DNA of 39,499 nt from an uncultured Opitutales bacterium (GTDB lineage: Bacteria > Verrucomicrobiota > Verrucomicrobiia > Opitutales > T3Sed10-336). Under the pieces are notes generated by a model. The model was not told where the DNA came from, did not search any database, and saw only the letters and a list, made by a program, of their open reading frames with translations. Below, one piece after another: positions 1 through 39,499 of this stretch. The position numbers and the translations under genes are program-made. Every line of letters starts with the position of its first letter. The stretch's first letter is position 1. The stretch lies in NCBI GenBank assembly GCA_964544025.1, contig CAZJCL010000001.1, forward strand, positions 55,824 to 95,322, written 5' to 3'.

Positions 1-2
1 CC

Positions 3-7457: not shown

Positions 7458-7540
7458 GATTTTCAGGGCAAACCTTCGTGAAATTGATTTTGGCCGCGGC
7501 GCTCGCGGTTTCCGCTGGATTGTCGCCGGCGGCGGCGCAG
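7454..7540 (+). other. Sec-type signal peptide, with probable SPase I cleavage after AAA/AAQ and no lipobox Cys
   Basis: The N-terminus has a basic start (MRF..K), a hydrophobic core (LILAAALAVSAGL) and an Ala-rich cleavage region (SPAAAQ|DL). Confidence 0.7.
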
Positions 7541-15664: not shown

Positions 15665-15719
15665 TTTTTTCGAATATTAGTTGTTAATTTTACCTCCACC
15701 GTCTAGCACCATCACCTGC
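15665..15719 (+). other. The only intergenic spacer in the window (55 bp, AT-rich relative to its flanks); a possible internal promoter or translation-initiation region for gene 3
   Basis: The sequence is ttttttcgaatattagttgttaattttacctccaccgtctagcaccatcacctgc. A T6 run directly follows the stop. There is a -35-like TTGTTA at 15681-15686 but no convincing -10 box, Shine-Dalgarno sequence or hairpin. Confidence 0.3.
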
Positions 15720-15791
15720 ATGTCAAAAGCCCGAATCGTCAGCTTTGCTGTGGAGGCCCTGGAGTCTCGCATATTGCTGTCGGCGGCGCCT
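15720..15791 (+). other. LEPR-XLL-like N-terminal motif (variant LESRILLSA)
   Basis: The N-terminus is MSKARIVSFAVEALESRILLSAAP, with the motif LESRILLSA at nt 15759-15785. The NCBIfam 'LEPR-XLL domain' is a short N-terminal signature (LEPRxLLSA) of very large repetitive secreted proteins, mainly from Planctomycetes and relatives (recalled from memory, not searched). Confidence 0.6.
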
Positions 15792-18700
15792 CTCGATTCC
15801 ATGTTGGCTGGTGAGGAGGCAGCGCCGGAGGCGGTTTACGTTTCGGCGATCGAGGTGGAGGAGACGGTTTGTGGCGCGGCGGCGATGGAGATGGAGGAGG
15901 GGAGCGAGGAGCTCTTCGACGGGGCGGCGGATTTGGAGTCGACGGCGTCTCCCTTGGAGGAACCGGGGGAAATGGCTATGCAGCCTTTCTCTGAAGTGGA
16001 GACGAGCGCTCCGGCGATTTTTCAAAGCGGTTTTACGATTATCGATCCGGGAACGACGCATACGTTTCGTTCGACGACGGGCGGCATTTTTTTCTCGGGT
16101 CCGGGATCGATTGACGGAACGCCGGGAGCGACGGAGGAGAACGTGCGTTTTATTTCGGCGACGGCGATTTCCATCGACGTTCCGATCGGCGGAGCGAGTC
16201 CGATTCACGATTTGATCGTTTCGGCCGGATCGAACATTTTTTTCGGCGGGAGCATTCACATCACCGGCGATTTGATCGTGGAGCGGGGGGCGCAGGTGAC
16301 GTTCGACCGCGACGTGACGGTGGAGGGGAACATCATTATCGGAGACGAATCGGCGCCAGGGGATGTGGGAGGCGTGACCTTCAACGCGAACAGCATCGTC
16401 AACGCCGGGGGCGAAATTCGTATTCATACGAGCGGTGGAGTGGAGTTTCGCAACAGCGTGGGCGCGACGATGGTTCCCGATTTGGTGGAAGTTGTCGCGG
16501 GCGGGACGGTCAATTTCTTTCACGAACTGACGGCGGGAACGGCGGCGGTTTCCGGGGCGAATGTGAATTTCGAGCGGGCGGTGCGCGTGGACGAAGCGTC
16601 GATCACGGCGGCGGATTTGCTGACGATTGGGAACGTATTCGAGATTGGAAACGGGGACGCGGTACTGACGGCGAACCGGGTCGGTTTCACGGGCGGTTAC
16701 GGGTCGTTGCAATCGACGGGCGCGGCGTCGACGTTGACGATCCGGCCTTTCACGGCGTCGCGGGCGATCGGGATCGGGGATCCTTCGGGCGGGACTTTCA
16801 ACCGGTTGCAGATTTCGCATGTGGAGTTGAACGCGATCAACAACGGATTTCGGGAGTTGATCATCGGAGATTTGGTGGCGGGGACGGGGGAAGTCCGGAT
16901 CGCGAATATCGGTTTGGCGCAAACGGTGGCAATCGCGCAGATCCAGAACGCGGCGACATTCGCGGGCGGATCGGTGATTGTGGAAGGACGCGTGGATGTG
17001 GATGGTCTCGCGGATTATCTTCGTTTGGTGGCGCGGACGGGGGATGTGGTGGTCGACGAGGCGATCAACCAATCCGCGACGGAGCGGAATGGATGGGTGC
17101 GGATCGAGGCGGCGCGGGATATCGTCGTGAACCGGCCGGTTTTCGCGCTGGACCGGATTTCGCTGACGGCGGGTTATTTTGGTGGAAACGGGAGCGTGAT
17201 CGTCCATTCGACGGGAGCGGATTCCGGGCAGTTGTGGACCACGGGAACGGGTCCGGCTTTTTCGGAGCGGAGGATTGAAATAAGCGCGGGCGAGGGTGGA
17301 GGAGATATTGTTTGGACGGACGGTTCCGGGGCGGTGACTTTTTGGGCGGCGGGTTCGGGCGGGGCGATTGCGATGCGGGCGCCGGCGGGGGCGATCAGGC
17401 AAAACGGCGGCGTGATTCGCGCCGAAGTGCTGGCGGTTCGGTCGTTTGGAGATGTTTCCATTGTGTCGGCGGAGGTGGACCGGATCGGGCTGGTGGAGTT
17501 TTCGGGCGCGGCGTTGTTTTCCGGAGTTGCGGATTCGATCGACGGTATTGTGATCGCGGGGCCGGGCTCGTTGAATTTTGCCGGATTGCAATCTTTGGTT
17601 GTTGATCGTGTGACCACCGATGGCGGCGACATAACGTTGATCACGAGGGCGGTGATCGGAGCGGATTTGACGCTTGGCCGAATTGCGTCCGGGAGCGGAA
17701 ATATTTCGTTGAGCGCCGACGGATCCATTGTGGATGGTTTGGCGGGGGCGGGTATTGTGAATCTTGCCACGAGCGGTCGGGTCGCGTTGATCGCGAGCTT
17801 GGGAATCGGCGGTTCGGGGAGCGCGGATATCGATACGCGTGTTGGAGGTTTGGCCGCGACGAATTTGGCGACCGGGGGGATTTACATTCACGACCGCGGG
17901 AATCTGGTGATCGATGGCGCGGTTGAGACGCTGGCCGGGGACGGATCGATTATTCTCGTGGCGGAGGGCGCGGTTTTCACGGTGAACGCGACGGTTTCGG
18001 CGCATGGCGGAGGGGACGTTTTGCTCGATGCGCCGGCGGGGGACCTTGTTTTGGATGCGGCGGTGAGGTCGGCGGAAGGACATTTGACGATCCGGGCGGA
18101 GAACAATCTCGCGTTGGCGGGTTCCGCTTCCGTCTGGACGGGTGCTCCTGGGACGATTTTGCTGCGGACGGCGACGGGGGCGATTTCGATGAGCGGAACT
18201 TCGGCGGTCGCGGCGACGGGATCGAATTTGCGGGTCGAGGGCGGCGGGGATATCGGGTTGGGAAATCTTTCGGCGGAGCGGGTGGCGGTGGTTTCGGCGG
18301 GAGGATCGATTTTCAATTCCAGCGGATCGGCGGCGAATGTGACGGCGGACGAGTTGCGGCTTGAAGCGGCGAAAGCGGTCGGTTCGGCGGCGGTTGCGTT
18401 GACGACGGATGTTGCGCGAATCGCGGCTTTTGCGGGAAGCGCGGATGGGGTGTCGAAGGGGATTTATCTTGCGCAAGACGGCGCGGTTTCGGTTTCGGAA
18501 ATCGGGCCGGTCTCGGTTGAGGCGGTTTCGGCGGAGGGTGGTTCGAGCACGGTTGCGGATGTTGGAGGGTTGAGCGGACTTCGGACGGGGAACAACGGCA
18601 ATATCGTGTTGGTCGCGGCGGGCGAGGCTCGCCTCGACGATGGAGCGGGGGATGGAATCGCGGTATCGGCGGACGGTTCGGGGCGGGTTCGGATCGAGGC

Positions 18701-21700
18701 GGCGGGGGCGGGGAGCGATGTTATCGCGTTGGGCGATGTCCGGAGCGCGACCGGTCATGTGACGATGGTCGCGGCCGGGGCGGTTTCTCTCGGAAGCGGA
18801 GTTTCAGTGGCGACGGCGGGGGCGGGGACGATTTTTATTCGGGCCGAGGGCGGAAGCGTGACGATGGCGGGCGACGCACGGGCGGTGGCCGCGAATTCGG
18901 CGGTGCGGGTTTCCGCTTTGTCCGATATTTATCTCGGCGAAATCGCCGGAGCGGATGTTTCGGTGGAGGCGGAAGGAGGGTCGATTTTGGCGGCGACGGG
19001 ATCGACGATGAACGTTGCGGCGTCGCGGCTTCGTTTGGAGGCGGACGGTTCGGCGGGAACGGAGGCGGCGCCACTGGTGACGAGCGTGACGCTGTTGGCG
19101 GCGGTGGCCCGCGGGAACGGCGGCGGTCGCGGGATTTTTGTGCGGCAGTATGGGGATGTTTCGGTGACGCCGCTTCGGATCGACGGGTTTGCCGTTTCGG
19201 CGGATGGGAGCGAGGTGCCGTGGTCGGACGGGATGTTGCCGGTGGTGGCGGAGAATGGCGGCGATGTGCGGATTGTCGCGGACGGATCGGTGGATTTGAT
19301 TGCCGGGACGGGGAGCGGGAACGCGGTTTTGGCGGGCGGTTTCGTTGAGGTTCGCGCGCAGGGAGTGGGGAGCGATCTGACGGTTTCGGGGGATGTTCGG
19401 GCGGAAAACGGGGCGGTCGATCTTTTCGCGGGCGGAAGCGTGGAGCTTGTTGTGGGGAGCGCGGTGGTGGCGGCGGGGAATAAGGCGGTCGCGATTCGGG
19501 CCGAGGGCGGGACGTTGACGATGGCGGATGGCGCGACGGTGGCGACGGCGGCCGGGCGGGTGACTTTGTTCGCGAAAGGGGATGTTCTGGTTTCGGCGAT
19601 AATTTCGGAAACGGGGGATTTGTTTGTCGCGAGCGAGGAAGGGGCGATTTTCGATAACACGGCGGCCGAGACTCCGAATTTGGCGACGCTCGGGACGGCG
19701 CATCTTTTGGCGGCAACCGGGATTGGCGTGGCGGGGGATGGCGATCTGGATTCGGGAGTTTCGTTTCTGACGGCGCGGAACACGACTTCGGGAGATATCG
19801 CGATTCATGCGGCACGGAATTTGACGATTTCGAGCGCGGCGGAAATCACGTCGGGCGGAGTGCGGAATGAAGGGGTTGGCGGTTCGGTTTTGATCGATAC
19901 GCGGAACGGATCGATTGCGGTTGCGGGGGAAATATTCGCGGAAGGCGGGAACATTCTTTTGGAAACGTCGGGAGTTGGCGGCGGGAATTTGCGGATCGAC
20001 GCGCCGGTGACGGCGGTTCGGGGAGCGATCACTTTGCACGCGCGGGAAGCGTTTTCGATCGACGCGGCGGTGGCGGCGGTCGCGGGGGGAACGATTTTTC
20101 TTTGGGCGGAAAACGGGGGGTTGACGCTTTCGCCGGGGGCGACGGTGACAACGGCGGATGAATCCATTTTTATCCGCGCTCATGGAAACGCGATTGTTAC
20201 CGGAATCGACGCGGGGACGGGCGGTGTTTCCGTGGTTTCCGGGACCGGCGCGATCATCGACGGTGGCGACGCGAACCGCGATATGGCGGCGGGGAGTTTG
20301 CGGTTGTCCGCTTTCGGCGGGATCGGCGCGGGGAACGCGCTGGATATCGACGTGCGGAATTTGGCGGCGGCGGCGAATGGCGGAATCGATTTGTCGAATT
20401 TCGGGGATGTGGCGGTGGATACGGTTTCGGCGGTTTCGGTCGAGCGGGTTTTGCGCGATAATACGGTCGCGATGGTTGGGGACGCGGGGCGGGTCAGCGA
20501 TTTGACGACGACGGGTGGGAATATCCGGCTAGTAAGCGAAACGGGAGCGATCACGTTGCGCGATGGATTTGATAACGATCTGGTCGCGGTGGATGCGGGA
20601 GGCGGGTCGATTTCGATTTTCGCGGCGACGGAGATTGCGCAGTTCGCCAACGTTGTGACGGCGGGTTCGGGGACGATCGCGTTGGGGGCGGAAAGTGGCT
20701 CGATTTTGATGAGCGATGGGGCGGCGGCGGTTGGTGTCGCCGGGTCGATCGTGTATTCGGCGGGTGGGGATATTTGGGTTTCGCGTATCGAAACCGCGAG
20801 TGGTGATTTGAGTCTGACGGCGGGGAGCCGGATTTTGGATAACACGGTCGCGGAAACGCCGAATTTGATCACGTCGGGTTTGGTTTCGTTGGATGCGCGG
20901 AACGGAATCGGGGACGTGGGAGTGGCGGATATCGACACGGAAGCCGGCTCGTTGGTCGCGGTCAACCGGATTGGCGGGCGAATCGTGATCGAGGAAGCGG
21001 ACGGTTTGGTGGTTTCGGGTTCGGGAATTTCGAATTTGGGCGGCGATATTTTGGTTACGGTCGTTGCGGGAAATCTTGTGGTCGGCGGCGATGTGTCGGC
21101 GGGTGGAGCGGGCAATGTTCTTCTTCGGACGACGGCGGGGAGCGGCGCGATTTCGGGGACGGCGAATGTTTCGACGGATTCCGGACATATTACGATTTTT
21201 TCGCCGCGCGCGATTCAATGGAGCGGATCCGCGAGGATTATGGCGGGAGGAGCGGGTTCGTTGACGGTTTCGGCGGGAGCGAGGTCGGTGAGTTTCGGGA
21301 GCGGAGTGTTGGTTGGTTCCACGAGTGGAGATGCGCGATTGACGGCGGCGGCGGATGTTTCGCTGGGCGGGGTTTCGACGAGCGGGAAAGTTTTTGTCCA
21401 GGCGGGGTCGGGGTCGATTTTCAATAACAGCGACACTTATGTGAACATCGTTGCGAGCGGTGTGCGTCTTGAGGCGGGGACGGGCGTCGGGGTTTTGGGC
21501 GCGTCGGCCCGTCCGGTGACGATCGACGCGGGAACAGTGGCGGCGCGGGCGACTTCCGGCGGGATCAATCTTCTCGAATCGACGTCGGTTTCGGTGGGGA
21601 GCGTTTCGGTTTTGACGCGACGAGTGAACGCGGATGGTTCGTTCACGGAGGAGACGGGGGCGGCGGTTTCGGATTTGGCGACGACGGGCGGAAACGGGTC

Positions 21701-33700: not shown

Positions 33701-36700
33701 GGGAGCGGGAGCGAACGCGATCGAAGCGGCGGTGGGGAGGTTGTCGGCGCGGGCGGGTGCGGGCGGTATTAATGTTTTGGCGACGTATGGACTGGTGATT
33801 GGAGACGTTGCGGTGGTGACGCAGCGGGTGGGCGCGGATGGGTCGGTGACGGCGGTGACGGATGAAGCGCAGTCGGATGTGGCGACGATCGCGGGGAACG
33901 GTTCGATCGTGGTGCGGACGCTGGGCGGGGATTTGGTGTTGAACGACGGTTCGGCTCCGGAGGACGGGGTTTCCGTTTGGAGTCATGGCAGCGGGAACAT
34001 CCGGTTGGAATCGGGAGGGGCGACTTCGGATTTGTTGGTGAACGCGGATGTGCGGTCGGATTCGGGGAACGTGACGCTGTTGGCGGGCGGTTCGCTGATT
34101 TTCGCGGATGAGGCGGGGATTTCGACAGACGGGTTTGTCGATTTGGAGGCGATCGCGGGAAGTATTGTTACCGGAGGGGCTTTGCGGATTTCGGGCGGGA
34201 ATATCCGGTTGCATGCCGGGGACGATATTGTTCTGGGGAGCATTTTGAGTTCCGGCGACGTTTCGGTTTCGTCGGCGAATGGATCGATTCTGAATGGGGG
34301 AACCGGCGGGGTGAATATCGTGGCCGACCGGTTGCGGTTGTTCGCCGGAGCGGGAATCGGGACGTTGGGTGCGGGGGCGAATGCGCTGACGACCAGGGTG
34401 AACGCGTTGACGGCGCGGGCGGGATCCGGCGGGATTAATATTTTCAATACGGGATCGGTGACGGTGAGCACGGTCGGCGTGGTGACCGGGCGGGTCGGCA
34501 TCGATGCTTTGGTGACGACGGTGACGGTTCCCGAGCAGTCGGATTTGGCGACGGCGGGGAATGGTTCGATCGTTTTGCGGACGGTGGATGGCGGAATCGC
34601 GTTTGACGAAGGGCGAAGCGTGTCGGCTCACGGAGAGGGGAATGTTCTTTTGGAAGCGACGGGATCGGAAAGCGCGGTTGTTATTGGCGGGGCGGTTTTG
34701 TCTGGAGCGGGACATGTGACGGTGACGGGGGAAAGCGGCGTTACGTTTAGCGGTATTGGTGCGCGGATCGCGACGGGCGGGGCGGGGACGGTGACGGTGG
34801 AATCGGGGCGCGGAATTTCGATGGCGGCGGTTCACGAAATCGTGGCGGAGAGCGGGAATATCCGGCTTGTCGCCGATTTGTCCGTTACGGTTGGACGAAT
34901 CGCGACGGCGGGGGATGTTTCGATGGTGGCCGGCAGGGCGATCCGAGGGGCGGCGGGAAGTTCGGTTCATGTCGAAGCGGCCGGTTTGCGTTTGGATTCG
35001 CGGGCGGGAATCGGCGGGATGGGATTTGCGCCGTTTGTTACGGATGTTTCCGTTCTGAGCGCCCGTGTAGAAGACGGACGTATCACGATTTTGGAAATGG
35101 ACGATCTCACAATCGACGGGGTTGCGGTGATGGTTCACAAGGTCGGGGCGGATGGTTCGACCGCTCCGGTGATGGACGTGTTGCAGTCGGACGTGGTTTC
35201 CGGGGGGGACGTAATTCTCGGAACGGTGAACGGGACGCTGACGTTGAACGACGGTTCGGCTCCCGGTGACGGGATCGCAGTTTCGGCCGGTTTGAACGTG
35301 CGGCTCGAAGCGGCCGGGGCGGAGTCGGATCTTGTGGTGAACGGGGAAATCCGGTCGGCGACCCGGGCGGTCGATTTGCGGGCGGGGAGATCGGTGATTT
35401 TTGATTCCGGCGCGCGGGTGGTCGCGTTGGGGCAGGGGACGGTGAATGTGGAGGCGGCGGGTGGCGGAATCGCGATGGCGGATGGCGCGTTGATCGACAC
35501 GGCGTTGGGGATTCGGCTTCATGCGCACGGAGATGTGGTTTTGGGCGGGTTGCGGGTTTGGGAAACGGTCGGGAAAGTGGCGGTTGTTTCCGCGAGCGGA
35601 TCGATTTTGGACGGGGGCGACGCGCATATCGATGTGGTGGCGAAGGAGCTTTCGCTGTGGGCGGCGGCGGGAATCGGGGAATTGGGCGAGGAGGCGGACG
35701 CGATCGAAACGCGGGTGGGCGTGGTTTCGGCTTGGAGCGGCGGCGGGGTTAATCTTTTGGAGACGGATGGGCTCGTGGTCGGCGCGGTGGCGGTTTCGGT
35801 GCGGCGGGTGGATGCGGATGGAACGGACGCGGAATTTACGGCAGAGGCTTTGTTCGGGTTGACGAGCGGCGGCGCGACGGTGGTGCGGACGGTTGAGGGG
35901 GATCTGGTTTTGACGGCGGGGAGCGGAGGGGAGCGCGCGGTGGAAGCGGCCGGGAACGTTCTATTGGCGGCGGGCGGAATCAGGGCGGATTTGACGGTCG
36001 GGGGCGGCGTGGTTTCCGGAGGGCATTTGACGTTGCTGGCGGGGCGATCGGTGACGGTGGCGTCGGGAGTGACGATTTCGGGCGCGGGAACGGCCAACGT
36101 GGAAGCGGGCACCGGATCGATTTTGATGGGGGCGGGAAGCCGGGTGGAAACGGCGGGGAATGTCCGGATGGCGGCGGCGACGGATGTTGTTTTGGGCGTT
36201 TTGGAGACGGGTGGGGATGTTTCGATTACCGCGGTGGCGGGTTCGATTTTGCGGAACGCGGAGGAAACGGGTGCGTTGGTTGCGCGGATGTTGCGGTTGA
36301 ACGCGGGGGCGGGAATCGGGATTTTGGGTGAGGGAGCTTATCCGTTGTTGACGTCGGTGACGAGGGTTTCGGCGCGGGCGGGGAACGGCGGAATTAATTT
36401 GTTCAATACGGGCAGTTTGACGGTCGGCCTGGTTCGGGTGGCGGTGTCGAAGGTTTTGGCGGACGGCGGAACGGAAATGGTCGAGGATGGGCCCCAGGCG
36501 GATTTGGTGACGGCGGGCGGAGATGGTTCGATCGTGGTGCGGGTATTCGACGGGGATTTAGTTTTGACGGATGGCCCGGGCGGGGAAGCGGGGGTGGCGG
36601 TTTCGGCGCACGGCGCGGGGAATATTTTGCTGGCGACCGACGCGGGGAGGTTGATCCGGGTCAATGCGGGCGTGGTCTCGGCGAATGGGAATATCTCGAT

Positions 36701-39499
36701 TTTGGCGGGCGGGGAGATTGTTTTTTCCTCGGGAGCCGATGTGAGCAGTGGGAGCGGAACGATCGATATCGAAGCGGCGGGCGGATCGATTCGGATGGGG
36801 GGCGGAAGTCGGATTGAGGGGGGCGCGGGGGATATTCGGCTGCACGCGGCGAACGATGTGGCGCTCGGTGGCGTGAGTAATTTAGGAGATGTTTCGATTA
36901 CCGCGTTGAGCGGATCGATTACGGGAGCGGGTTCGGGCGATGTTGACGTGGCGGCGGGCGGGTTGCGGCTTTTCGCGGGCGGTGCAATCGGAGAGCCGAC
37001 GGCGCACTTGCGGACTTCCGTCGCGACTTTGACGGCCCGGTCGGGAACGGGAGGGATTTATGTGGAGGAAACGGATTCGGTGATCGTTGGGTGGGTTGAT
37101 GTTTCGGTGGAACGCGTGGGGGACAATGGCCGGACGACTTCCGTGGGTGCCGGTTTGCAAACGGGTCTCGCGACGGGAGGGAGCGACGGGAATCTGGTTT
37201 TTCGCACGATCGGCGGAAGCATTGTTTTGGATGGGGGTGTCGCGGTTTCGGGTGAGGCGAATCTTCTTTTGAGCGCGGGGGGAGCCGGTTCGGATTTGGT
37301 GGTTAATTCTTCGGTTTCGTTTGGAGCCGGGGCGGCGAGCCTTCACGCGGGGCGGTCGATTTTTGTCGGAGTTGGGGTGGAGATTTCGGGAACGAACGTT
37401 GGCGATCTGGATCTGGAGGCGGTCTCGGGTTCGATCGTGATGGCGGATGGGGCGAGGGTTGCGAGCGGAACCGGAGCGATACGTTTGCGCGCGGCGGGTG
37501 ATGTGATTTTGGGAGAGGTGCGCACCGGTGGCGATGTTTCGATCATCGCGGAAGGCGGCTCGATTTTGGACCGGAATGGGGATTTCGCGAATGTGACGGC
37601 GCGCCGTTTGCGATTGGTGGCGGGGTCGGGAATCGGCACGCTGGGCGCGGAGGCCGATGCGATCGAGACGAAGGTGGAGCGGCTTTCGGCGCGGGCTGGC
37701 GGCGGGGGAATTAACATCCGTCAAGAAGGAGCGCTCGCGATCGGAGATGTATCGGTCTCGGTTCGCCGGGTAGGGATTTCCGGAACCACAATGCGGTTGG
37801 CGGACGCGATGCAGTCGGATGTGGCGACGGTGGGCGGAAACGGGTCGATTGTTATCCGTGTGATTGGTGGCGGGATTACTCTGGACGACGGTTCCGTGCC
37901 GGTAGATGCGGTCGCGGTTCGCGCTCACGGCAGTGGAAATGTTTTAATCGAGGCGAGCGGCGCGGGAGCGGATATTGTGGCGAACGTTTCGTATGTGCAG
38001 TCGGGTTCGGGTCACGTTTCTCTGCTGGCTGGTCGATCCGTGATTCTTCAGGGCGGGGCGGGAGTGATGACGGGCGGCGCGGGAACGGTGAGCGTGGAAG
38101 CGCTGGCGGGAGTGGTTTGGATGTCGGCCACGAGCAATATTTTCAGCGGAACCGGGAATGTCCGGTTGGTGGCGGCGACGGACGCGGCGATCGGACATGT
38201 GGCGACGGCGGGAGATGTGTCGATTCGGGCGGGCGGAAATATTTTCGGGATTTCGGATTTCAATTTGGTCGCGCACCGGGCGCGATTGGAGGCGGGCGGA
38301 AGTATCGGAGTTTCAAGGGGGGCGGGTCGCGCGATTGGGATGGAGGTTTCGGTGGTGAGTGCTCTAGCGGGCGGCGGAGGAGTTCATCTGTTTAACGGAA
38401 TCGCGCTGACGGTTGGCGAGGTGGAAGTCGCGGTGTGGAAGGTCGAGGCGGATGGCGGGGTGTCGGTGGTGACGGAGGCGGCGTTGTCGGGAATTCGCGC
38501 AACGGCGGGCGATGGCACGGTCGTTGTTCGGAGTTTGGGCGGAGTTGTCGTGGACGACGAAATCATGGCGGATGGAGTGGGGACGATTTTGGTGGAGGCG
38601 ATCGGCGTGGACGCTGTTTTGGCGGTGAATGCGGGGGTGCGATCCGGGATTGGGCATGTGACGTTGATCGGCGATTCCGTTTCGGTGGCGGATGGCGTGA
38701 CGGTGTTTAGCGGCGCGTCGGGGACGGTGGAGATCGTGGCGCGTGGAGGTGCTATTGCGATGGGCGTGGGGAGTCGCGTGGATTCGGGCTCGGGGAATGT
38801 GCGGTTGGCGGCGGCGGGGGATGTCGTTTTGGGACGTTTGGTTACCACGCGCGCGGTTTCGATTTTGGCGGCGGGAGGATCGATTTTGGGTGCCGGGAAT
38901 GAGGAACCGGTTGTGACGGCTTCGGCGTTGCGGATGGTTGCGGGCGGCGCGATTGGAACGGGAGCGAATCCGCTGGAGATCGATGTGGGGACGGTGAGCG
39001 CGCGGGCGGAGAATGGCGGGATTTATTTGCGGGCGGGTTCGGCGATTGTTGTTGGATCGGTGGCGGTGGCGGTGCAACGAGTGGGGGAATCCGGCGGGGT
39101 GTCGGAGGTTTCGGATGCGGCTTTGGCGGGAGTGGCGACGTTGGGGGGGAATGGATCGGTTGTGATTCGGGCGGGCGTGGGTTTGACAGTTAACGCGGGT
39201 GTCGCGGCGCATGGGAGCGGGAATGTTCTGCTGGAGGCGGGCGCTGTGGATGCGGAAATTTCGCTTCGGGCGAGTGTGACGTCGGGGAGCGGACATATTT
39301 CGGTTTTGGCGGGGCTGTCGGTGACGTTTGGCGCGGGCGCGGATATCGTGAGCGGCGGAGCGGGAACGGTGGATATCGCGGCGGGCGGCGGGGCGATTTG
39401 GATGGCGGACGCGAGCCGGATCGACGCGGGGGCGGGGAATGTGCGGTTGAGCGCGGCGGGCGATGTGACGTTGGGCGGAATTTTGACGACGGGGAACGT
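15720..39499 (+). CDS. Giant secreted beta-solenoid-like repeat protein of at least 7,926 codons; the 3' end lies beyond the window (not in the supplied ORF track)
   Basis: The ATG is at 15720 and the nearest in-frame upstream stop is TAG 15678-15680. I found no in-frame stop through nt 39499, by hand translation of long stretches plus checks of suspicious taa/tag/tga strings I noticed. The track lists no + ORF in this frame after 15664, which is only possible if the frame never closes. The translation is periodic and protein-like, whereas the antisense ORFs are Arg/Pro/His-rich. Confidence 0.93.
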   Translation, partial: MSKARIVSFAVEALESRILLSAAPLDSMLAGEEAAPEAVYVSAIEVEETVCGAAAMEMEEGSEELFDGAADLESTASPLEEPGEMAMQPFSEVETSAPAIFQSGFTIIDPGTTHTFRSTTGGIFFSGPGSIDGTPGATEENVRFISATAISIDVPIGGASPIHDLIVSAGSNIFFGGSIHITGDLIVERGAQVTFDRDVTVEGNIIIGDESAPGDVGGVTFNANSIVNAGGEIRIHTSGGVEFRNSVGATMVPDLVEVVAGGTVNFFHELTAGTAAVSGANVNFERAVRVDEASITAADLLTIGNVFEIGNGDAVLTANRVGFTGGYGSLQSTGAASTLTIRPFTASRAIGIGDPSGGTFNRLQISHVELNAINNGFRELIIGDLVAGTGEVRIANIGLAQTVAIAQIQNAATFAGGSVIVEGRVDVDGLADYLRLVARTGDVVVDEAINQSATERNGWVRIEAARDIVVNRPVFALDRISLTAGYFGGNGSVIVHSTGADSGQLWTTGTGPAFSERRIEISAGEGGGDIVWTDGSGAVTFWAAGSGGAIAMRAPAGAIRQNGGVIRAEVLAVRSFGDVSIVSAEVDRIGLVEFSGAALFSGVADSIDGIVIAGPGSLNFAGLQSLVVDRVTTDGGDITLITRAVIGADLTLGRIASGSGNISLSADGSIVDGLAGAGIVNLATSGRVALIASLGIGGSGSADIDTRVGGLAATNLATGGIYIHDRGNLVIDGAVETLAGDGSIILVAEGAVFTVNATVSAHGGGDVLLDAPAGDLVLDAAVRSAEGHLTIRAENNLALAGSASVWTGAPGTILLRTATGAISMSGTSAVAATGSNLRVEGGGDIGLGNLSAERVAVVSAGGSIFNSSGSAANVTADELRLEAAKAVGSAAVALTTDVARIAAFAGSADGVSKGIYLAQDGAVSVSEIGPVSVEAVSAEGGSSTVADVGGLSGLRTGNNGNIVLVAAGEARLDDGAGDGIAVSADGSGRVRIEAAGAGSDVIALGDVRSATGHVTMVAAGAVSLGSGVSVATAGAGTIFIRAEGGSVTMAGDARAVAANSAVRVSALSDIYLGEIAGADVSVEAEGGSILAATGSTMNVAASRLRLEADGSAGTEAAPLVTSVTLLAAVARGNGGGRGIFVRQYGDVSVTPLRIDGFAVSADGSEVPWSDGMLPVVAENGGDVRIVADGSVDLIAGTGSGNAVLAGGFVEVRAQGVGSDLTVSGDVRAENGAVDLFAGGSVELVVGSAVVAAGNKAVAIRAEGGTLTMADGATVATAAGRVTLFAKGDVLVSAIISETGDLFVASEEGAIFDNTAAETPNLATLGTAHLLAATGIGVAGDGDLDSGVSFLTARNTTSGDIAIHAARNLTISSAAEITSGGVRNEGVGGSVLIDTRNGSIAVAGEIFAEGGNILLETSGVGGGNLRIDAPVTAVRGAITLHAREAFSIDAAVAAVAGGTIFLWAENGGLTLSPGATVTTADESIFIRAHGNAIVTGIDAGTGGVSVVSGTGAIIDGGDANRDMAAGSLRLSAFGGIGAGNALDIDVRNLAAAANGGIDLSNFGDVAVDTVSAVSVERVLRDNTVAMVGDAGRVSDLTTTGGNIRLVSETGAITLRDGFDNDLVAVDAGGGSISIFAATEIAQFANVVTAGSGTIALGAESGSILMSDGAAAVGVAGSIVYSAGGDIWVSRIETASGDLSLTAGSRILDNTVAETPNLITSGLVSLDARNGIGDVGVADIDTEAGSLVAVNRIGGRIVIEEADGLVVSGSGISNLGGDILVTVVAGNLVVGGDVSAGGAGNVLLRTTAGSGAISGTANVSTDSGHITIFSPRAIQWSGSARIMAGGAGSLTVSAGARSVSFGSGVLVGSTSGDARLTAAADVSLGGVSTSGKVFVQAGSGSIFNNSDTYVNIVASGVRLEAGTGVGVLGASARPVTIDAGTVAARATSGGINLLESTSVSVGSVSVLTRRVNADGSFTEETGAAVSDLATTGGNGSIVLRTLDGGIRLLDGDVANGVAVQAHGSGNVLLEAGGSGAEILAGADVRSVSGHVSVVAAGSVAFSAGADILTGLAGTIYVEAVAGSVAMDDASRFSSVSGGIRVVAGGDVLLGGISTGGNVAIIAGGSILDNGDTRVDVSANGLLMNAGVGVGTLGAGANAIETSVSVLTARGGAGGIHVRESGDLVVGDVTVTVRKVSADGTVAAVVEGAQSDVATVSGDGSIVLRLTNGSLRLTAGATTSGNLAVSAHGAGNVLLDTIGAFTEIFADAGIGSGSGNISVTSAIRAGFGAGADIRTGSDGTIDVVARTGFISMDGDSVFSAEEGDIRLMAPAEILLGSLRTGGNVSVISQLASILDNGNGGVNIEARGARLFALADIGILVPIGVGSGPNPIDTDVAILTARSQAGDINILERRSVTVADVAAMVNRVNPDGSTAEVRDEAQADILTLGENGSIVLRSEGGDIFLSDGAMLVDGSAGEDGIAVSAHGSGSILIEAMGAGTDVSATADIRSGTGHITLIGARSLEFGGDTEVFTGGGGTLYLEAVTGNVEQAGDSRFVADQGDVRIAAGNSILLGGVTTNGDVSLIAGRGSILDSGNVVGRENVVARDLRLVAGSGIGTPGNHFETRVEVLSARAGSDGIFLWETDGLTVDATGATVSRVNADNTLTTVSDAEQSGVATVAGNGSIVIRTLGGNLTLDDGVAGDGDAISAHGSGNILLEAAGAGTDILAGAAIRSGSGHVTLLAARAVYFSTGADVATGGAGTIEIAARDGSITMADGVRFSSGSGDLRLHAAGSVWVGGLATGGNVSILAATGSILGNGDAQIEVVASGLRLVAGVGVGKLGVGAVPFRTTVATVTARAGGGGINLLETDALVVDDVAVTVKRVNQDATVTDFTDAAQADVATVSENGGIVIRTLAGSLTLNDGAAGADGWAVSADGSGNVLVEAGGVGAIVLANAGIVAGSGHVSVVAARSVSFAGSAGIATGGSGTIFMASISGNVSQADASRFVAENGDVRVIAAGDFRIGGITTGGNVSLIAESGSILDGGDAFGGEDVIANRLRMTAGAGIGTGNAIETRVSRLSARAGAGGIFIRETDALTIDDTWASVLRVLADGGTVGTLDSAQSDVRTADGGSIVIRSAGGSITLNDGTALADGVSVSAAGGGNVLVETIGGGGDVGVSADIVSGSGHVSVLAGRNVLFGAGADIWTGGAGTLNIEAATGSVVMDDETRFGAETGSVRVYAAVDVIVGGVSTGGDVSISAVGGSIRSAGDSYLDVVADGLRLVAGGGIGKSGAENDPIRTSVAVLSARTGSGGINLVEADALVVDDVRVAVERVNFDASTTAAVDAVQSGIVSGGSVLLRTLGGDLTLNAGSAPANGIAIEKTGAGTILVEAAGAGTSVFVNGEIAGYRGDVSVIADRSVVFADAGISLNVIFSGTIFVRAGAGSIVMEGESIFRSAGGDMRLEAFEDVRLGQLRAGVYGGGTTISVTATSGSILNNAPEMSLNVAADRLRLVAGIGVGVLGELAKAVETQVGSVAVRAGGGGINILNRGDLAVEGVASKVNRVNEDGSVTALAEAVLSDVRTVSGNGSIVLRTLGGDLTLNDGTAPADGIAVSAHGTGNIRLEAAGAESDLLVNANVESGGGYISMLGGRDIRFAAGVRVSGSGKTLDLEAGSGSIVMGDGTVFDGGAADIRLRAGLDVVVGGIATSGNVSITSVAGSVLSGGKAEVDVAANGLRLAAGTGVGTLGVGAKALRTAVATLSARSETGSINILNTGMLAVDDVAVSVFRVGIDGVADVVTDAAQSDVRTFGGNGSIILRTVAGNLTLNDGTASADGVAVSAHGTGNILLEAGGAVSDLAVNAEVRSGSGNITLLAGRNVGIGAVSVTTGGAGTIDVEAEAGSISMADGGSISAADGNVRLHAAGDVILSGIRTSGDVAVTANWGSILDGGDTYVDVAANGLRLLSRGGIGTLGTGANGIETAVATLSARADDGGIHIVEADALVVGTVGVAVRRVMANGLLTWVTYLGQSDVRTTGDGSIVLRTISGDLTLTDGTGPADGVAVSARVNVLLEAGGADSDLLVNADVRLELGAASLVAGGSVTLGAGVRIANGGRGSIEVEASGGSITMSEGSSISGGSGTVHLWAAVDVSLGEVSTTRDVWIVALAGSISDNGVDSVNVAARNLRMVAGVGIGTLGAGADAIETRVSVLNARAGSGGINILEADDLEIGAFAVSVRRVERDGTIGGEVPLRAAAEDGRVATTDGDGSIVVRTVAGSLVLGDGVWAVPATVSADGSGSILLEANGAGSDVIVGGRVEAVSGSITVAAARSVSILGDFWIWSGTGTTDVEARGGSIEMSPLAWVGGNHLRLRAAEDVVLGSAFAAGNASITAVDGSISRGSAGGIDVTAGGLRLSAGTGIGTLGAGAMPLRTNAMILSARAGGGGVNVLEANALVVGTVSVTVQRVMADGSLTALTDAGQSDAATTGGNGSIVLRTVVGSLGLTDGVGPADGVAVSAHGTGNVLLEAGGAVSDLAVNADVRSGSGNVTLRAGRNVTFAGTGVLTGGMGTVFVEAAGGSIGMGDASLIFAESGNVRLRAAGSVTLGGVWTGGHVSIIAANGSILDGGDSYTDVVASGLRLVAGVGIGTLGGGANGIDVAAGTLSARGGSSGVHVVATNALTVGTVSVTVQRVAADGSVTPVTDAALSDVRTTGGDGSVVLRTLAGNLTLTDGTAFADGVAVSAHGAGNVLLEAGGAVSDLAVNAEVRSGSGNITLLAGRSVRIGEVAVTTGGAGTVDVEAGAGSISVADGGAVSAGDGNVRLRAAGDVVLSGIATGGDVSVTSVSGWILDGGDTFADVAANGLRLSAGAGIGTLGAGANGIETVVARLSARAGGGGIHVLEADALIVGTVGVAVRRVTADGSVTLVTDEAQSDVVTTGGDGSIVLRTVAGSLTLTDGTGLADGVAVSAHGAGNVLVEAGGAGADLAVNAAVVSGSGHVTLFARRSAIFAASSVATGTGGTISVEAATGSISMSVGSRVDGAGSIRLYAAESVRLSEVVSTGGDVSVTAVSGSILGNGDGRVALAGEGIRLVAGVGIGTLGAVVNPVGMSGGTVSARAGSGGINLLETDSLVVGTVSVTVERVAADGSVSTVTDAALSDVRTTGGNGSVVIRAVKGSLTLTDGMGAGDGVSVAAHGSGNVLLQAGGSSSDILIHASVTSGTGHLSLIAGRNVTLSAGTLVSSGGTGTVDIEATAGSIMMADTSRVASEIGTIRLRAGTDVTLGGVEAKGNVSVEAIQGWILDGGDTYTDVIAQGLNLVAGVGVGRLGAGANAIETQAVILNARAGSGGINVVEADGLRTGVSMSMHVFRVLPSATLFLRAAGVATGIQTIGGDGSVVIRTLAGSLELNSVVANDYRAAIAHGSGNILLHAGGAGSNLTLNGGVVSGEGHISLIANRSVVIAQPREVATGSGSVNVEASQGTIFMVNGSRILSGAGNIRLHAAEDVALGGIATTGDVSISAVAGSILDNGDAHLDVAANGLRIVAGVGIGTLGTGANGIETAVATVSARAGSGGVNILEADALTVGDVAVTVRKVRADATVESVQDAVQSDVRTISGNGSIVIRTVAGGLTLNDGTAAADGVAVSAHGSGNVFLEAGGSESLLNVNADVVSGSGHITLFSGRDAVLSGAQVLSGGLGTVVIRTGGSITMSEDSRIDGGAGNIQLAAARDVWLGGVRTSGGVSITAVSGSVLDSGGTSVNVEASGLRLMAGAGIGTLGAESNPIRTAVATLNAEAGAGGINILEADSLEIVIGDPVVFIVRRVLETGGTMGFIELYHRVLTTTSGNGDIVIRTTNGSIRLDSADGEWRGVAAHSSGNILLEAGGANSDLSAHVSVMSGGGHVTLLAGRNIELFAEVSTGIGTGEAGTVILEAGSGSITMADASLISTASGSVRLHAALDIVLGGILAGGNVAITAVGGSILDGGDVLEDVVAPGLRLVAGEGIGRLGAGANAIEAAVGRLSARAGAGGINVLATYGLVIGDVAVVTQRVGADGSVTAVTDEAQSDVATIAGNGSIVVRTLGGDLVLNDGSAPEDGVSVWSHGSGNIRLESGGATSDLLVNADVRSDSGNVTLLAGGSLIFADEAGISTDGFVDLEAIAGSIVTGGALRISGGNIRLHAGDDIVLGSILSSGDVSVSSANGSILNGGTGGVNIVADRLRLFAGAGIGTLGAGANALTTRVNALTARAGSGGINIFNTGSVTVSTVGVVTGRVGIDALVTTVTVPEQSDLATAGNGSIVLRTVDGGIAFDEGRSVSAHGEGNVLLEATGSESAVVIGGAVLSGAGHVTVTGESGVTFSGIGARIATGGAGTVTVESGRGISMAAVHEIVAESGNIRLVADLSVTVGRIATAGDVSMVAGRAIRGAAGSSVHVEAAGLRLDSRAGIGGMGFAPFVTDVSVLSARVEDGRITILEMDDLTIDGVAVMVHKVGADGSTAPVMDVLQSDVVSGGDVILGTVNGTLTLNDGSAPGDGIAVSAGLNVRLEAAGAESDLVVNGEIRSATRAVDLRAGRSVIFDSGARVVALGQGTVNVEAAGGGIAMADGALIDTALGIRLHAHGDVVLGGLRVWETVGKVAVVSASGSILDGGDAHIDVVAKELSLWAAAGIGELGEEADAIETRVGVVSAWSGGGVNLLETDGLVVGAVAVSVRRVDADGTDAEFTAEALFGLTSGGATVVRTVEGDLVLTAGSGGERAVEAAGNVLLAAGGIRADLTVGGGVVSGGHLTLLAGRSVTVASGVTISGAGTANVEAGTGSILMGAGSRVETAGNVRMAAATDVVLGVLETGGDVSITAVAGSILRNAEETGALVARMLRLNAGAGIGILGEGAYPLLTSVTRVSARAGNGGINLFNTGSLTVGLVRVAVSKVLADGGTEMVEDGPQADLVTAGGDGSIVVRVFDGDLVLTDGPGGEAGVAVSAHGAGNILLATDAGRLIRVNAGVVSANGNISILAGGEIVFSSGADVSSGSGTIDIEAAGGSIRMGGGSRIEGGAGDIRLHAANDVALGGVSNLGDVSITALSGSITGAGSGDVDVAAGGLRLFAGGAIGEPTAHLRTSVATLTARSGTGGIYVEETDSVIVGWVDVSVERVGDNGRTTSVGAGLQTGLATGGSDGNLVFRTIGGSIVLDGGVAVSGEANLLLSAGGAGSDLVVNSSVSFGAGAASLHAGRSIFVGVGVEISGTNVGDLDLEAVSGSIVMADGARVASGTGAIRLRAAGDVILGEVRTGGDVSIIAEGGSILDRNGDFANVTARRLRLVAGSGIGTLGAEADAIETKVERLSARAGGGGINIRQEGALAIGDVSVSVRRVGISGTTMRLADAMQSDVATVGGNGSIVIRVIGGGITLDDGSVPVDAVAVRAHGSGNVLIEASGAGADIVANVSYVQSGSGHVSLLAGRSVILQGGAGVMTGGAGTVSVEALAGVVWMSATSNIFSGTGNVRLVAATDAAIGHVATAGDVSIRAGGNIFGISDFNLVAHRARLEAGGSIGVSRGAGRAIGMEVSVVSALAGGGGVHLFNGIALTVGEVEVAVWKVEADGGVSVVTEAALSGIRATAGDGTVVVRSLGGVVVDDEIMADGVGTILVEAIGVDAVLAVNAGVRSGIGHVTLIGDSVSVADGVTVFSGASGTVEIVARGGAIAMGVGSRVDSGSGNVRLAAAGDVVLGRLVTTRAVSILAAGGSILGAGNEEPVVTASALRMVAGGAIGTGANPLEIDVGTVSARAENGGIYLRAGSAIVVGSVAVAVQRVGESGGVSEVSDAALAGVATLGGNGSVVIRAGVGLTVNAGVAAHGSGNVLLEAGAVDAEISLRASVTSGSGHISVLAGLSVTFGAGADIVSGGAGTVDIAAGGGAIWMADASRIDAGAGNVRLSAAGDVTLGGILTTGN
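15792..16013 (+). other. Acidic, Glu-rich low-complexity linker following the N-terminal motif
   Basis: The sequence is LDSMLAGEEAAPEAVYVSAIEVEETVCGAAAMEMEEGSEELFDGAADLESTASPLEEPGEMAMQPFSEVETSAP. It contains the only Cys I saw in gene 3. Confidence 0.6.
17700..39499 (+). repeat. About 33 tandem copies of a ~225-aa higher-order solenoid unit (645-708 bp in the regular part, 576-666 bp in the first six)
   Basis: The 'G-S-I-[LF]-[DN]' anchor occurs at about nt 17712, 18302, 18968, 19633, 20247, 20823, 21410, 22083, 22762, 23470, 24143, 24823, 25491, 26176, 26856, 27530, 28198, 28873, 29553, 30228, 30900, 31578, 32255, 32925, 33610, 34280, 34940, 35597, 36240, 36910, 37555, 38230 and 38875. A second landmark, SAHGSGN[VI]LLEA, recurs with the same period. 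Confidence 0.88.

What the first reader, a model, noticed from the sequence alone, without database searches (positions are those of the whole stretch)
15720..39499. A giant ORF of at least 7,926 codons, open at the window edge, is missing from the ORF track
From ATG 15720, in the frame whose codon starts are divisible by 3, I find no stop codon up to nt 39499. I hand-checked the suspicious stop-like strings I noticed. Each is either a sense codon or out of frame:
- 20529 CTA-GTA
- 27777 TAT-CTA-GGG
- 31704 ATT-TTA-AAC
- 33180 ATT-GAA-CTT
- 35067 GTA-GAA
- 36879 AAT-TTA-GGA
- 38361 GCT-CTA-GCG
- 39183 TTG-ACA-GTT

There is also an independent argument. The track lists no + strand ORF in this frame after 15664. 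Any in-frame stop would have created a multi-kb listed ORF, so the track evidently reports only ORFs closed by a stop inside the window.

The translation is periodic and protein-like. The minus-strand ORFs listed over the same DNA are Arg/Pro/His-rich low-complexity strings. A protein of at least 7.9k residues would be among the very largest bacterial proteins, and its true length is unknown.
Basis: seen in the sequence. Interest (0 to 1): 0.9.

Follow-up and report, generated by a model that had tools for sequence, protein, structure and literature searches.

The report
Giant beta-solenoid surface protein gene, truncated
The open frame is real: it encodes the first 7,926 residues of a giant, repeat-built beta-strand fibre protein of a kind already annotated in Verrucomicrobia ("LEPR-XLL domain-containing protein"), so it is a very large but not unprecedented gene whose function is still untested.

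Summary
Observation confirmed. From ATG 15720 the frame has no stop up to the window edge: 7,926 codons, where about 267 stops are expected by chance. The ORF lister omits it only because it drops ORFs that run off an end.

The frame is coding. Its codon usage matches the neighbouring gene (r=0.97). Its internal repeats diverge most at third codon positions, with dN/dS of 0.3-0.55.

Architecture:
- an N-terminal LEPR-XLL motif (NCBIfam NF012209, above cut-off)
- an acidic linker
- a conserved N-domain of about 450 aa
- at least 33 tandem units of about 223 aa, continuing to the window edge

AlphaFold models two units as an all-beta structure (pLDDT 94.5). It has no significant PDB match; the weak hits are autotransporter beta-helices.

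The unit has 3,248 representative relatives, many 5,000-7,900 aa long, mainly from Opitutia. Named examples are called "LEPR-XLL domain-containing", "hypothetical" or "filamentous hemagglutinin family" proteins.

A three-gene cassette is shared with Thalassobacterium sedimentorum: giant A, then a propeller/CHB_HEX_C protein, then giant B. There giant B is complete at 4,533 aa.

The stop codon and full length could not be recovered.

Verdict: a new, unusually long member of a known but uncharacterised kind. It is most likely a secreted or surface fibre or adhesin. TPS, autotransporter and RTX signatures are absent.

The parts
15720..39499 (+). Giant ORF 'giant B', 5' part only: 7,926 codons with no stop, running off the window
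   Evidence: The ATG at 15720 is supported by alignment of Met1 to Met1 of the closest relative, P0051.
15744..15809 (+). LEPR-XLL N-terminal motif (aa 9-30, FAVEALESRILLSAAP)
   Evidence: NCBIfam NF012209 'LEPR-8K': 24.4 bits against a cut-off of 17, E=1.5e-5. The same hit occurs in relatives P0007 and P0051.
15807..16019 (+). Acidic Glu/Ala-rich linker (aa 30-100); holds the only Cys of the protein (aa 51)
   Evidence: Composition: 17 Glu and 14 Ala in 71 residues.
16017..17399 (+). Conserved N-domain (aa ~100-560), beta-strand-repeat-like
   Evidence: The first 520 aa give phmmer scores of 525 bits to P0051 and 304-319 bits to P0003 and P0007, with their N-termini. BLASTP identity to P0051 is 52%. 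Alignment. The same domain lies internally in other giants.
17280..21689 (+). About 7 degenerate ~210-226-aa units (aa ~521-1990)
   Evidence: Unit HMM domain scores of 73-187 bits.
21690..39143 (+). 26 canonical ~223-aa units (aa 1991-7808)
   Evidence: Unit HMM scores of 183-277 bits each. Mean pairwise identity is 46% for protein and 57% for DNA. AF2 on two units gives pLDDT 94.5 and an all-beta model.
39144..39497 (+). Partial 27th canonical unit, cut by the window edge at about unit position 125
15665..15719 (.). 55-nt AT-rich intergenic spacer between the propeller/CHB_HEX_C gene and giant B
   Evidence: No sigma-70-like promoter was found in the 15300-16000 scan, and no terminator-like site lies inside the spacer itself: the two such sites are inside the upstream gene, at 15381 and 15452.
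7454..15664 (+). Middle gene of the cassette, 2,736 aa: Sec-type signal peptide, BNR/Ycf48-like propeller, 28 CHB_HEX_C_1/Fn3_assoc domains
   Evidence: Pfam. The orthologue sits in the same position in T. sedimentorum: 249 bits, 40% identity over the propeller.
3..7457 (+). Giant ORF 'giant A', 3' part only (2,484 aa, open at the left edge): partial 223-aa unit (aa 1-90), 12 repeats of about 139 aa (aa 129-1742), and a conserved ~700-aa C-terminal domain
   Evidence: The C-domain scores 190-310 bits against the C-termini of P0027, P0041, P0078, P0026 and L001 giant A, and 119-181 bits against P0031, P0007, P0036, P0003 and P0008. AF2 on the last 450 aa gives pLDDT 91, all beta.

Best explanation
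Positions 15720-39499 are the 5' part of a single real gene. It encodes a giant protein that is almost entirely beta-solenoid and is exported to form a long fibre or adhesin on, or released from, the cell surface of a verrucomicrobium (class Opitutia or near it).

Shown here:
- an uninterrupted coding frame under purifying selection
- an N-terminal LEPR-XLL motif
- an acidic linker
- a conserved N-domain
- at least 33 tandem ~223-aa modules, confidently modelled as stacked short beta-strands plus a longer beta-hairpin segment per module

Inferred from complete relatives and the upstream paralogue: the missing 3' end carries further modules and a conserved ~700-aa all-beta C-terminal domain. 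That would make the whole protein at least about 8,700 aa.

Inferred from architecture only: the LEPR-XLL segment serves export; the modules stack into a rigid rod on the order of 100 nm; and the rod works together with the neighbouring secreted propeller/CHB_HEX_C (carbohydrate-binding-type) protein and the paralogous giant A. All three are syntenic in Thalassobacterium sedimentorum. The likely role is attachment to polysaccharide-rich particles or to other cells.
For: Coding reality:
- No stop in 7,926 codons, against about 267 expected.
- RSCU correlation of 0.97 with the neighbouring gene, and GC3 of 0.71 as in both neighbours.
- Identity between units by codon position is 0.59/0.65/0.46.
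- dN/dS between units is 0.31-0.57 in 18 of 19 pairs.

Not an assembly collapse: the units share only 46% aa and 57% nt identity on average, and the longest exact repeat is 59 nt.

Family:
- LEPR-XLL hit above the curated cut-off.
- The unit profile finds 3,248 representative proteins at E<=1e-3 and 792 at E<=1e-30. Of the best 150, 29 are at least 5,000 aa and 42 start with LExRxLL.
- Named relatives come from Horticoccus luteus, Opitutales and Puniceicoccaceae MAGs, and T. sedimentorum.

Complete architecture: P0007 (WP_308985623.1, 4,533 aa) and P0003 (5,669 aa) have both a p3-like N-terminus and a p1-like C-terminus.

Fold: AF2 gives pLDDT 94.5 and pTM 0.93, all beta, for two units, and pLDDT 91, all beta, for the paralogue's C-terminus. 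The only Foldseek neighbours are beta-helical passengers and adhesins (Hbp, IgA1 protease, EspP, Ag43, MpAFP), all below significance.

Synteny: in T. sedimentorum (L001), giant A with a p1-like C-terminus (310 bits), a 471-aa orthologue of the middle gene (249 bits) and giant B with a p3-like N-terminus (319 bits) lie in the same order and on the same strand.

Extracellular context: the middle gene has a classical signal peptide and 28 CHB_HEX_C_1 domains.
Against: - No experiment or transcript/peptide evidence is available.
- The N-terminus is not a canonical Sec signal peptide: Glu residues interrupt the hydrophobic stretch (read from the sequence). The export role of LEPR-XLL is an assumption.
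- No secretion-system gene, outer-membrane barrel, TPS domain, RTX repeat or known anchor was found in the window, the paralogue or the complete orthologue.
- There is no significant structural match to any characterised adhesin; the best E-value is 0.056.
- The stop codon is not in the window, and the source contig was not found in the genome or metagenome collections, so the full length and C-terminus are extrapolated.
Confidence: 0.72

Rival explanations
1. The open frame is an assembly artefact: a chimeric or mis-counted concatenation of repeat units from one or several shorter genes. The true protein would then be much shorter, or the frame would really be interrupted.
For: Both ends of the window lie inside arrays of the same 223-aa unit and only about 6 residues apart in unit register, as happens when assemblers break at repeats. 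Many database contigs carrying relatives also end inside these genes.
Against: The units are strongly diverged: mean 57% nt identity, maximum 83%. The longest exact repeat is 59 nt, so ordinary k-mers and read pairs resolve them. Frame, codon usage and third-position divergence are uniform along 23.8 kb. Relatives from isolate genomes and long contigs have 20-44 units in single ORFs of 4,500-7,900 aa.
Confidence: 0.06
2. The left-edge ORF (3..7457) and the right-edge ORF (15720..39499) are two ends of the same gene, on a circular or tandemly duplicated element. The true product would then be about 10,400 aa.
For: The right ORF stops at about unit position 125 ('...GGILTTGN-V') and the left ORF starts at about unit position 133 ('GSILD...'). 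A gap of about 17 nt would therefore join them in register and in frame.
Against: There is no terminal sequence overlap. A 39.5-kb circle would hold only two genes and no replication functions. In T. sedimentorum the same cassette clearly has two separate giants on one linear contig, and giant B is complete at 4,533 aa. A register match within about 15 residues has roughly a 7% chance probability.
Confidence: 0.05
3. It is a classical two-partner-secretion (FHA/TpsA) or autotransporter adhesin that has diverged too far for the profile models. This is what one database annotation of a relative suggests ('filamentous hemagglutinin family outer membrane protein').
For: It has a beta-helical repeat architecture and giant size. 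The weak Foldseek neighbours are autotransporter passengers and TPS domains. A Puniceicoccaceae MAG relative carries the name given above.
Against: There is no Pfam or NCBIfam hit to the TPS domain, the autotransporter barrel or haemagglutinin repeats in the N-terminal 2,000 aa, in the paralogue's C-terminus or in the complete orthologue P0007. The modelled C-terminal 450 aa give only weak beta-helix matches and none to an outer-membrane barrel. The N-terminus carries LEPR-XLL instead of a Sec signal followed by a TPS domain.
Confidence: 0.12

Closest known systems
LEPR-XLL domain-containing proteins (NCBIfam NF012209, model name 'LEPR-8K'), e.g. WP_308985623.1 of Thalassobacterium sedimentorum (4,533 aa) and WP_220166622.1 of Horticoccus luteus (6,246 aa, 'hypothetical protein')
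   Same: The same N-terminal motif, above the cut-off. A homologous N-domain. The same ~223-aa unit. The same gene neighbourhood in T. sedimentorum.
   Different: It is longer (at least 7,926 aa, incomplete) and has more units (at least 33). Identity to the closest relative found is only 52% in the N-domain. Its middle-gene partner has expanded from 1 to 28 CHB_HEX_C_1 domains. None of these proteins has a tested function.
Filamentous haemagglutinin / TpsA proteins of two-partner secretion
   Same: Very long, Gly/Ala/Val/Ser-rich, beta-helical repeat proteins that form extracellular fibres. TPS domains (HMW1, HxuA, EtpA) appear among the weak structural neighbours.
   Different: There is no TPS domain, no haemagglutinin repeat hit and no TpsB gene in view. 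The repeat unit is ~223 aa with an internal long hairpin, not the ~19-residue FHA repeats (the latter figure is from my own knowledge).
Type Va autotransporter passengers (Hbp, IgA1 protease, EspP, Ag43) and chlamydial Pmp proteins of the PVC group
   Same: These are the best, though non-significant, Foldseek neighbours: E=0.056-1, TM 0.2-0.3. All are beta-solenoid stalks.
   Different: No C-terminal barrel is detected in the paralogue or orthologue. There are no Pmp repeat hits. The protein is at least about 5-8 times longer than the matched passenger-domain structures (about 900-1,000 residues).
Giant RTX/T1SS adhesins (LapA, MpIBP, SiiE) and giant proteins of Omnitrophota and other PVC phyla
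   Same: Multi-thousand-residue tandem-repeat surface proteins. The beta-helical Ca2+-dependent antifreeze protein (PDB 3p4g) is a weak structural neighbour. Enrichment of giant genes in PVC bacteria is documented (PMC11573180; bioRxiv 10.1101/2023.11.21.568195).
   Different: There are no RTX nonapeptides in p3, p1 or P0007, although one related giant (L002) has them. The repeats are solenoid modules, not Ig-like beads.

Membership tests
LEPR-XLL domain-containing protein (NCBIfam NF012209) | N-terminal ~24-aa LEPRxLL motif scoring above the curated cut-off | tested here: met
   24.4 bits against a cut-off of 17, at aa 9-30.
LEPR-XLL domain-containing protein (NCBIfam NF012209) | Motif located at the extreme N-terminus of a very large protein | tested here: met
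   Motif at aa 9-30 of a protein of at least 7,926 aa. Relatives with the motif are 2,300-7,700 aa.
Opitutia 223-aa-unit giant proteins (unnamed sequence family defined here by profile A1) | Tandem ~223-aa units matching the profile, plus a homologous N-domain | tested here: met
   35 unit matches. 3,248 representative relatives. The first 520 aa score 304-525 bits against P0051, P0007 and P0003.
Opitutia 223-aa-unit giant proteins (unnamed sequence family defined here by profile A1) | Conserved ~700-aa C-terminal domain ending in a hydrophobic strand plus an aromatic residue | not testable with these tools
   The 3' end of the gene lies outside the window, and the source contig was not found. 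The domain is present in the upstream paralogue and in P0007 and P0003.
Two-partner secretion TpsA / filamentous haemagglutinin | N-terminal TPS secretion domain (Pfam Haemagg_act) | tested here: not met
   No Pfam family at E<=0.1 in aa 1-2000, and none in the complete orthologue P0007.
Two-partner secretion TpsA / filamentous haemagglutinin | Adjacent TpsB (Omp85-type) transporter gene | tested here: inconclusive
   The window holds only three genes, none Omp85-like. In L001 the 9 kb upstream hold only giant A and the middle gene. Wider flanks were not available.
Type Va autotransporter | C-terminal 12-stranded beta-barrel translocator (Pfam Autotransporter) | tested here: inconclusive
   The protein's own C-terminus is missing. 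The paralogue p1 and orthologue P0007 have no such hit. The modelled last 450 aa of p1 match only beta-helices, weakly.
RTX / type I secreted giant adhesin | C-proximal RTX nonapeptide repeats (Pfam HemolysinCabind) | tested here: inconclusive
   None in the three scanned segments of p3 (aa 1-4000 and 6001-7926), in p1 or in P0007. The protein's own C-terminus is unseen. One related giant, L002, does carry them.
Chlamydial polymorphic membrane proteins | GGA(I/L/V)/FxxN repeats (Pfam Chlam_PMP) and a middle domain | tested here: not met
   No Pfam hit.

The most novel reading that the evidence does not exclude
The conserved cassette (giant A, then a secreted propeller/CHB_HEX_C lectin-like protein, then giant B) may be an uncharacterised surface-fibre system of Opitutia. 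The giants would be exported by a pathway keyed to the LEPR-XLL N-terminus, distinct from T1SS, T5SS and two-partner secretion. Their ~223-aa module would be a new beta-solenoid repeat class with no solved homologue. Fibre length and accessory-protein length would be evolvable by repeat gain: 4,533 aa to at least 7,926 aa for giant B, and 1 to 28 CHB_HEX_C_1 domains for the accessory protein.
Probability: 0.25. Interest if true: 0.6.

Novelty: new member of a known kind. Interest (0 to 1): 0.35.

Why it matters
The case shows concretely that edge-open ORFs must be reported. Here 60% of the window is one gene that the ORF track hid.

Biologically it adds the longest member yet seen, among the 150 best relatives, of a large and entirely uncharacterised family of verrucomicrobial giant beta-solenoid proteins. 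The family has more than 3,000 representative clusters and no Pfam model. The work also defines the family's building blocks: the LEPR-XLL motif, the N-domain, the 223-aa module and the C-domain. The conserved three-gene neighbourhood occurs in a cultivable species, which makes function, export route and fibre structure experimentally testable. It does not overturn any current view, because PVC bacteria are already known to be rich in giant genes.

Tried and rejected
- Word-indexed protein searches with aa 1-1000 and aa 100-530 found nothing, because low-complexity words saturated the 8,000-candidate list. The unit profile through the same tool returned only short fragments.
- An exact look-up of the middle protein found no encoding contig.
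- Scans of genome contigs and metagenome contigs with the last 499 aa, meant to extend the contig, found no relative. A metagenome scan with the middle-gene propeller also found nothing. The stop codon could therefore not be reached.
- The unit alignment was too variable for pattern-based locus search.
- A PDB sequence search gave only a marginal VgrG spike hit, E=0.005.
- Foldseek against PDB and BFVD gave no match at E<=0.001.
- Pfam and PADLOC found nothing in the giants, and NCBIfam only the LEPR-XLL motif. Rfam found nothing in the window.
- A circular-contig test found no terminal overlap.
- No simple sub-period showed up in the unit by autocorrelation.
- The NCBIfam/PADLOC 'DUF499 antiphage' hits on the middle gene were rejected as cross-matches of its repeated domain: 297 bits against a cut-off of 1,200.
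- The literature search found no paper on this family. 'LEPR-XLL' occurs in only two unrelated papers.

Full report
**1. The observation**

Translating the window from ATG 15720, in the frame whose codon starts are divisible by 3, gives 7,926 sense codons and no stop. The frame opens after TAG at 15678 and is still open at 39497. Base composition alone predicts about 267 stops over this length, so P(no stop) is about 1e-118.

The ORF-listing tool says it omits ORFs that run off an end. It lists no + strand ORF in this frame after 15664. That explains why the gene was missing from the track.

The same tool reports antisense ORFs of up to 2,311 aa across the region. The largest translates to 24% Arg, 10% Pro and 7% His. 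This is a shadow of a G-rich coding strand: codon position 1 is 54% G and position 3 is 51% G. The same bias explains the very high GC skew of 0.3-0.47.

**2. Is it a gene?**

Several independent signals say yes.
- Relative synonymous codon usage correlates at r=0.97 with the adjacent, Pfam-annotated gene. GC3 is 0.71 in all three genes.
- The protein is built of tandem ~223-aa units (35 HMM matches). The 26 best units are only 46% identical on average at the protein level (maximum 78%) and 57% at the DNA level (maximum 83%).
- Identity between units by codon position is 0.59/0.65/0.46. Third positions have diverged most.
- Nei-Gojobori dN/dS between units is 0.31-0.57 in 18 of 19 pairs.
- The longest exact repeat inside the ORF is 59 nt. 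Repeat collapse or mis-joining during assembly is therefore unlikely, although unit number can only be proven with long reads.
- The ATG at 15720 is supported by homology: Met1 aligns with Met1 of the closest relative.

**3. Anatomy**

- **aa 9-30.** These residues match NCBIfam NF012209 (LEPR-XLL, model name 'LEPR-8K') above its curated cut-off.
- **aa 30-100.** An acidic Glu/Ala-rich linker holding the protein's only cysteine.
- **aa ~100-560.** A conserved N-domain.
- **aa ~520 to the window edge.** About 7 degenerate and then 26 canonical units follow, plus a partial one cut at unit position ~125.
- **Composition.** 17.5% Gly, 14% Ala, 12.5% Val and 9% Ser.
- **Family scans.** Pfam has no model for any part of it. 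PADLOC has none either.
- **Fold of the unit.** AlphaFold2 on two consecutive units, using the 25 unit pairs as the alignment, gives pLDDT 94.5 and pTM 0.93. The model has only beta-strands: many short strands of 3-6 residues, then several long strands of 8-12 residues per unit.
- **Structural neighbours.** Foldseek finds no significant PDB or viral neighbour. The weak top hits are beta-helical autotransporter passengers (Hbp, IgA1 protease, EspC/EspP, SepA, Ag43), pectin-lyase-fold enzymes and the beta-helical Ca2+-dependent antifreeze protein. A profile search of PDB sequences gives only a marginal VgrG spike hit.

I read the protein as a very long beta-solenoid rod. The figure of '~100 nm' is an inference from the usual 4.8 Å rise per coil.

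**4. Surroundings**

The window contains just three genes, all on the + strand.
- **ORF 3..7457.** It is open at the left edge (2,484 aa). It begins inside the same 223-aa unit, continues with 12 repeats of a different ~139-aa repeat, and ends in a ~700-aa domain. AF2 models its last 450 aa as all-beta (pLDDT 91). These residues match only beta-helices, weakly, and no outer-membrane barrel. This ORF is the C-terminal part of a paralogous giant ('giant A').
- **ORF 7454..15664.** It overlaps giant A's stop by ATGA. It encodes a 2,736-aa protein with a classical signal peptide, a BNR/Ycf48-like propeller and 28 CHB_HEX_C_1/Fn3_assoc domains.
- **Spacer.** A 55-nt spacer with no sigma-70-like promoter or terminator-like signal in it precedes the giant ORF of the finding, 'giant B'.

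**5. Relatives**

An exhaustive HMMER search with the unit profile finds 3,248 representative proteins at E<=1e-3 and 792 at E<=1e-30. Of the best 150, 29 are at least 5,000 aa, the longest is 7,902 aa (partial), and 42 begin with LExRxLL.

Named members include:
- Horticoccus luteus WP_220166622.1 (6,246 aa, 'hypothetical protein')
- Opitutales MAG proteins of 7,278 and 7,902 aa
- a Puniceicoccaceae MAG protein called 'filamentous hemagglutinin family outer membrane protein'
- Thalassobacterium sedimentorum WP_308985623.1 (4,533 aa, 'LEPR-XLL domain-containing protein'; one UniRef name in the family is 'beta strand repeat-containing protein')

P0007 (the T. sedimentorum protein) and P0003 (5,669 aa) have both a p3-like N-terminus and a giant-A-like C-terminus. 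The missing 3' end of the window's gene therefore most probably carries that C-domain. The complete protein is then inferred to be at least about 8,700 aa.

A pattern scan of GTDB species genomes with the N-domain alignment returned 15 loci. Eleven are labelled Verrucomicrobiota: Thalassobacterium, Oleiharenicola, Didemnitutus, Opitutaceae, Akkermansia and unclassified MAGs. Three are Planctomycetota MAGs, one a Gemmatimonas MAG and one, weakly, a Rickettsiales MAG. At least nine of the contigs stop inside the gene.

In the T. sedimentorum locus the same three-gene order is found on the same strand:
- giant A with the conserved C-domain (310 bits)
- a 471-aa orthologue of the middle gene, with the propeller plus one CHB_HEX_C_1 domain (249 bits)
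- giant B with the p3-like N-terminus (319 bits)

The closest relative found is only 52% identical over the N-domain. The window's own proteins and contig are absent from the collections searched. The source is therefore an unsampled lineage, probably in or near class Opitutia. This placement is an inference from the best hits (for the taxonomy).

**6. Mechanism**

Shown: a giant, selected, repeat-built all-beta protein with a LEPR-XLL N-terminus, in a conserved cassette with a secreted carbohydrate-binding-type protein and a paralogous giant.

Inferred:
- It is exported and forms a long rigid fibre or adhesin at the cell surface.
- The LEPR-XLL segment is the export determinant.
- The cassette proteins act together in attachment to polysaccharide-rich surfaces or to other cells.

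Against a classical pathway:
- There is no TPS domain, autotransporter barrel, RTX repeat or Pmp repeat in this protein, its paralogue or its complete orthologue.
- The N-terminus is not a typical Sec signal.

The export route is therefore unknown. I put 0.72 on 'real giant exported beta-solenoid fibre/adhesin', most of it resting on the gene and the fold, less on the role.

**7. Rivals**

- **Assembly artefact (0.06).** Favoured only by both window ends lying in unit arrays. Contradicted by unit divergence and by the many long relatives.
- **The left and right ORFs are one gene on a circle or tandem duplication (0.05).** Suggested by the near-identical unit register at the two ends, about 6 residues apart. 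Contradicted by the absence of any terminal overlap, the implausible gene content of such a circle, and the clearly separate giants A and B in T. sedimentorum.
- **A highly diverged TPS or autotransporter adhesin (0.12).** Compatible with the fold class. But the TPS domain was tested and not found, and no barrel was detected in the paralogue or the orthologue.

**8. Novelty and score**

The class is known to annotation pipelines (LEPR-XLL domain-containing proteins), and giant genes are a documented feature of PVC bacteria (PMC11573180; bioRxiv 10.1101/2023.11.21.568195; PMC12057145). This is therefore a new member of a known kind, not a new kind.

What is new here:
- its size, the longest among the 150 best relatives
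- the definition of the 223-aa module, N-domain and C-domain, none of which has a Pfam model or a solved homologue
- the conserved three-gene cassette
- the 1-to-28 expansion of CHB_HEX_C_1 domains in the middle gene

No paper on the family was found. Interest is 0.35.

Noticed in passing
window 7454-15664: The middle gene has 28 CHB_HEX_C_1/Fn3_assoc domains, seen as a DNA tandem array at 9565-14443 with a period of 468 nt (2 x 234). Its orthologue at the same position in Thalassobacterium sedimentorum has one domain and is 471 aa. This is a roughly six-fold length expansion of the accessory protein, in the same lineage where giant B is also longer.
   Followed up: partly
window 1-272 and 39144-39499: Both window ends fall inside the same ~223-aa unit type and only about 6 residues apart in unit register. 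There is no nucleotide overlap. This may be chance (about 7%), a contig broken at a repeat, or a hint of a circular or tandem structure.
   Followed up: partly
window 7454-7457: The stop codon of giant A overlaps the start codon of the middle gene (ATGA). This suggests translational coupling or an operon. A 55-nt AT-rich spacer with no promoter or terminator consensus in it precedes giant B.
   Followed up: partly
window 387-5228: Giant A contains 12 tandem copies of a second, ~139-aa repeat. This repeat is absent from the visible part of giant B. Among the 182 relatives compared it matched only P0119.
   Followed up: partly
window 15720-39499, minus strand (e.g. 20529-27464, 31707-35627, 15723-18758): Antisense ORFs of 1,000-2,300 aa arise purely from the G-rich codon pattern of the sense strand. 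They are Arg/Pro/His-rich and could be mis-called as genes. GC skew reaches 0.47 over the same DNA.
   Followed up: yes
window 7454-15664 (aa ~1660-1711 and repeats): NCBIfam and PADLOC report 'DUF499 anti-phage' matches to the middle gene: 297 bits against a cut-off of 1,200, and 187 bits. These are local cross-matches of the repeated CHB_HEX_C-type domain, not evidence of a defence gene.
   Followed up: partly
L004-L007, L009-L014; P0107; P0084: The 'N-domain' of giant B also occurs thousands of residues inside other giants whose frames stay open across the whole fetched locus. The modules are evidently shuffled among giant genes. At least nine of the 15 GTDB contigs end inside such a gene, so database lengths underestimate the true sizes.
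   Followed up: partly
L002 1-8319: The upstream giant in a Verrucomicrobia MAG locus carries RTX calcium-binding nonapeptide repeats (Pfam HemolysinCabind, 65.6 bits). The window's giants do not.
   Followed up: no
P0182 (WP_315765924.1), P0171/P0174, L011, L015: Some family members are labelled as coming from Limnospira (a cyanobacterium), Actinobacteria, Gemmatimonas or Rickettsiales MAGs. Binning contamination or horizontal transfer are both possible.
   Followed up: no
window 27249-27307 and 29946-30004: The longest exact repeat in the giant ORF is 59 nt. Its two copies lie 2,697 nt (four units) apart, inside the most similar unit pair (78% aa identity). This points to a relatively recent four-unit block duplication.
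   Followed up: no
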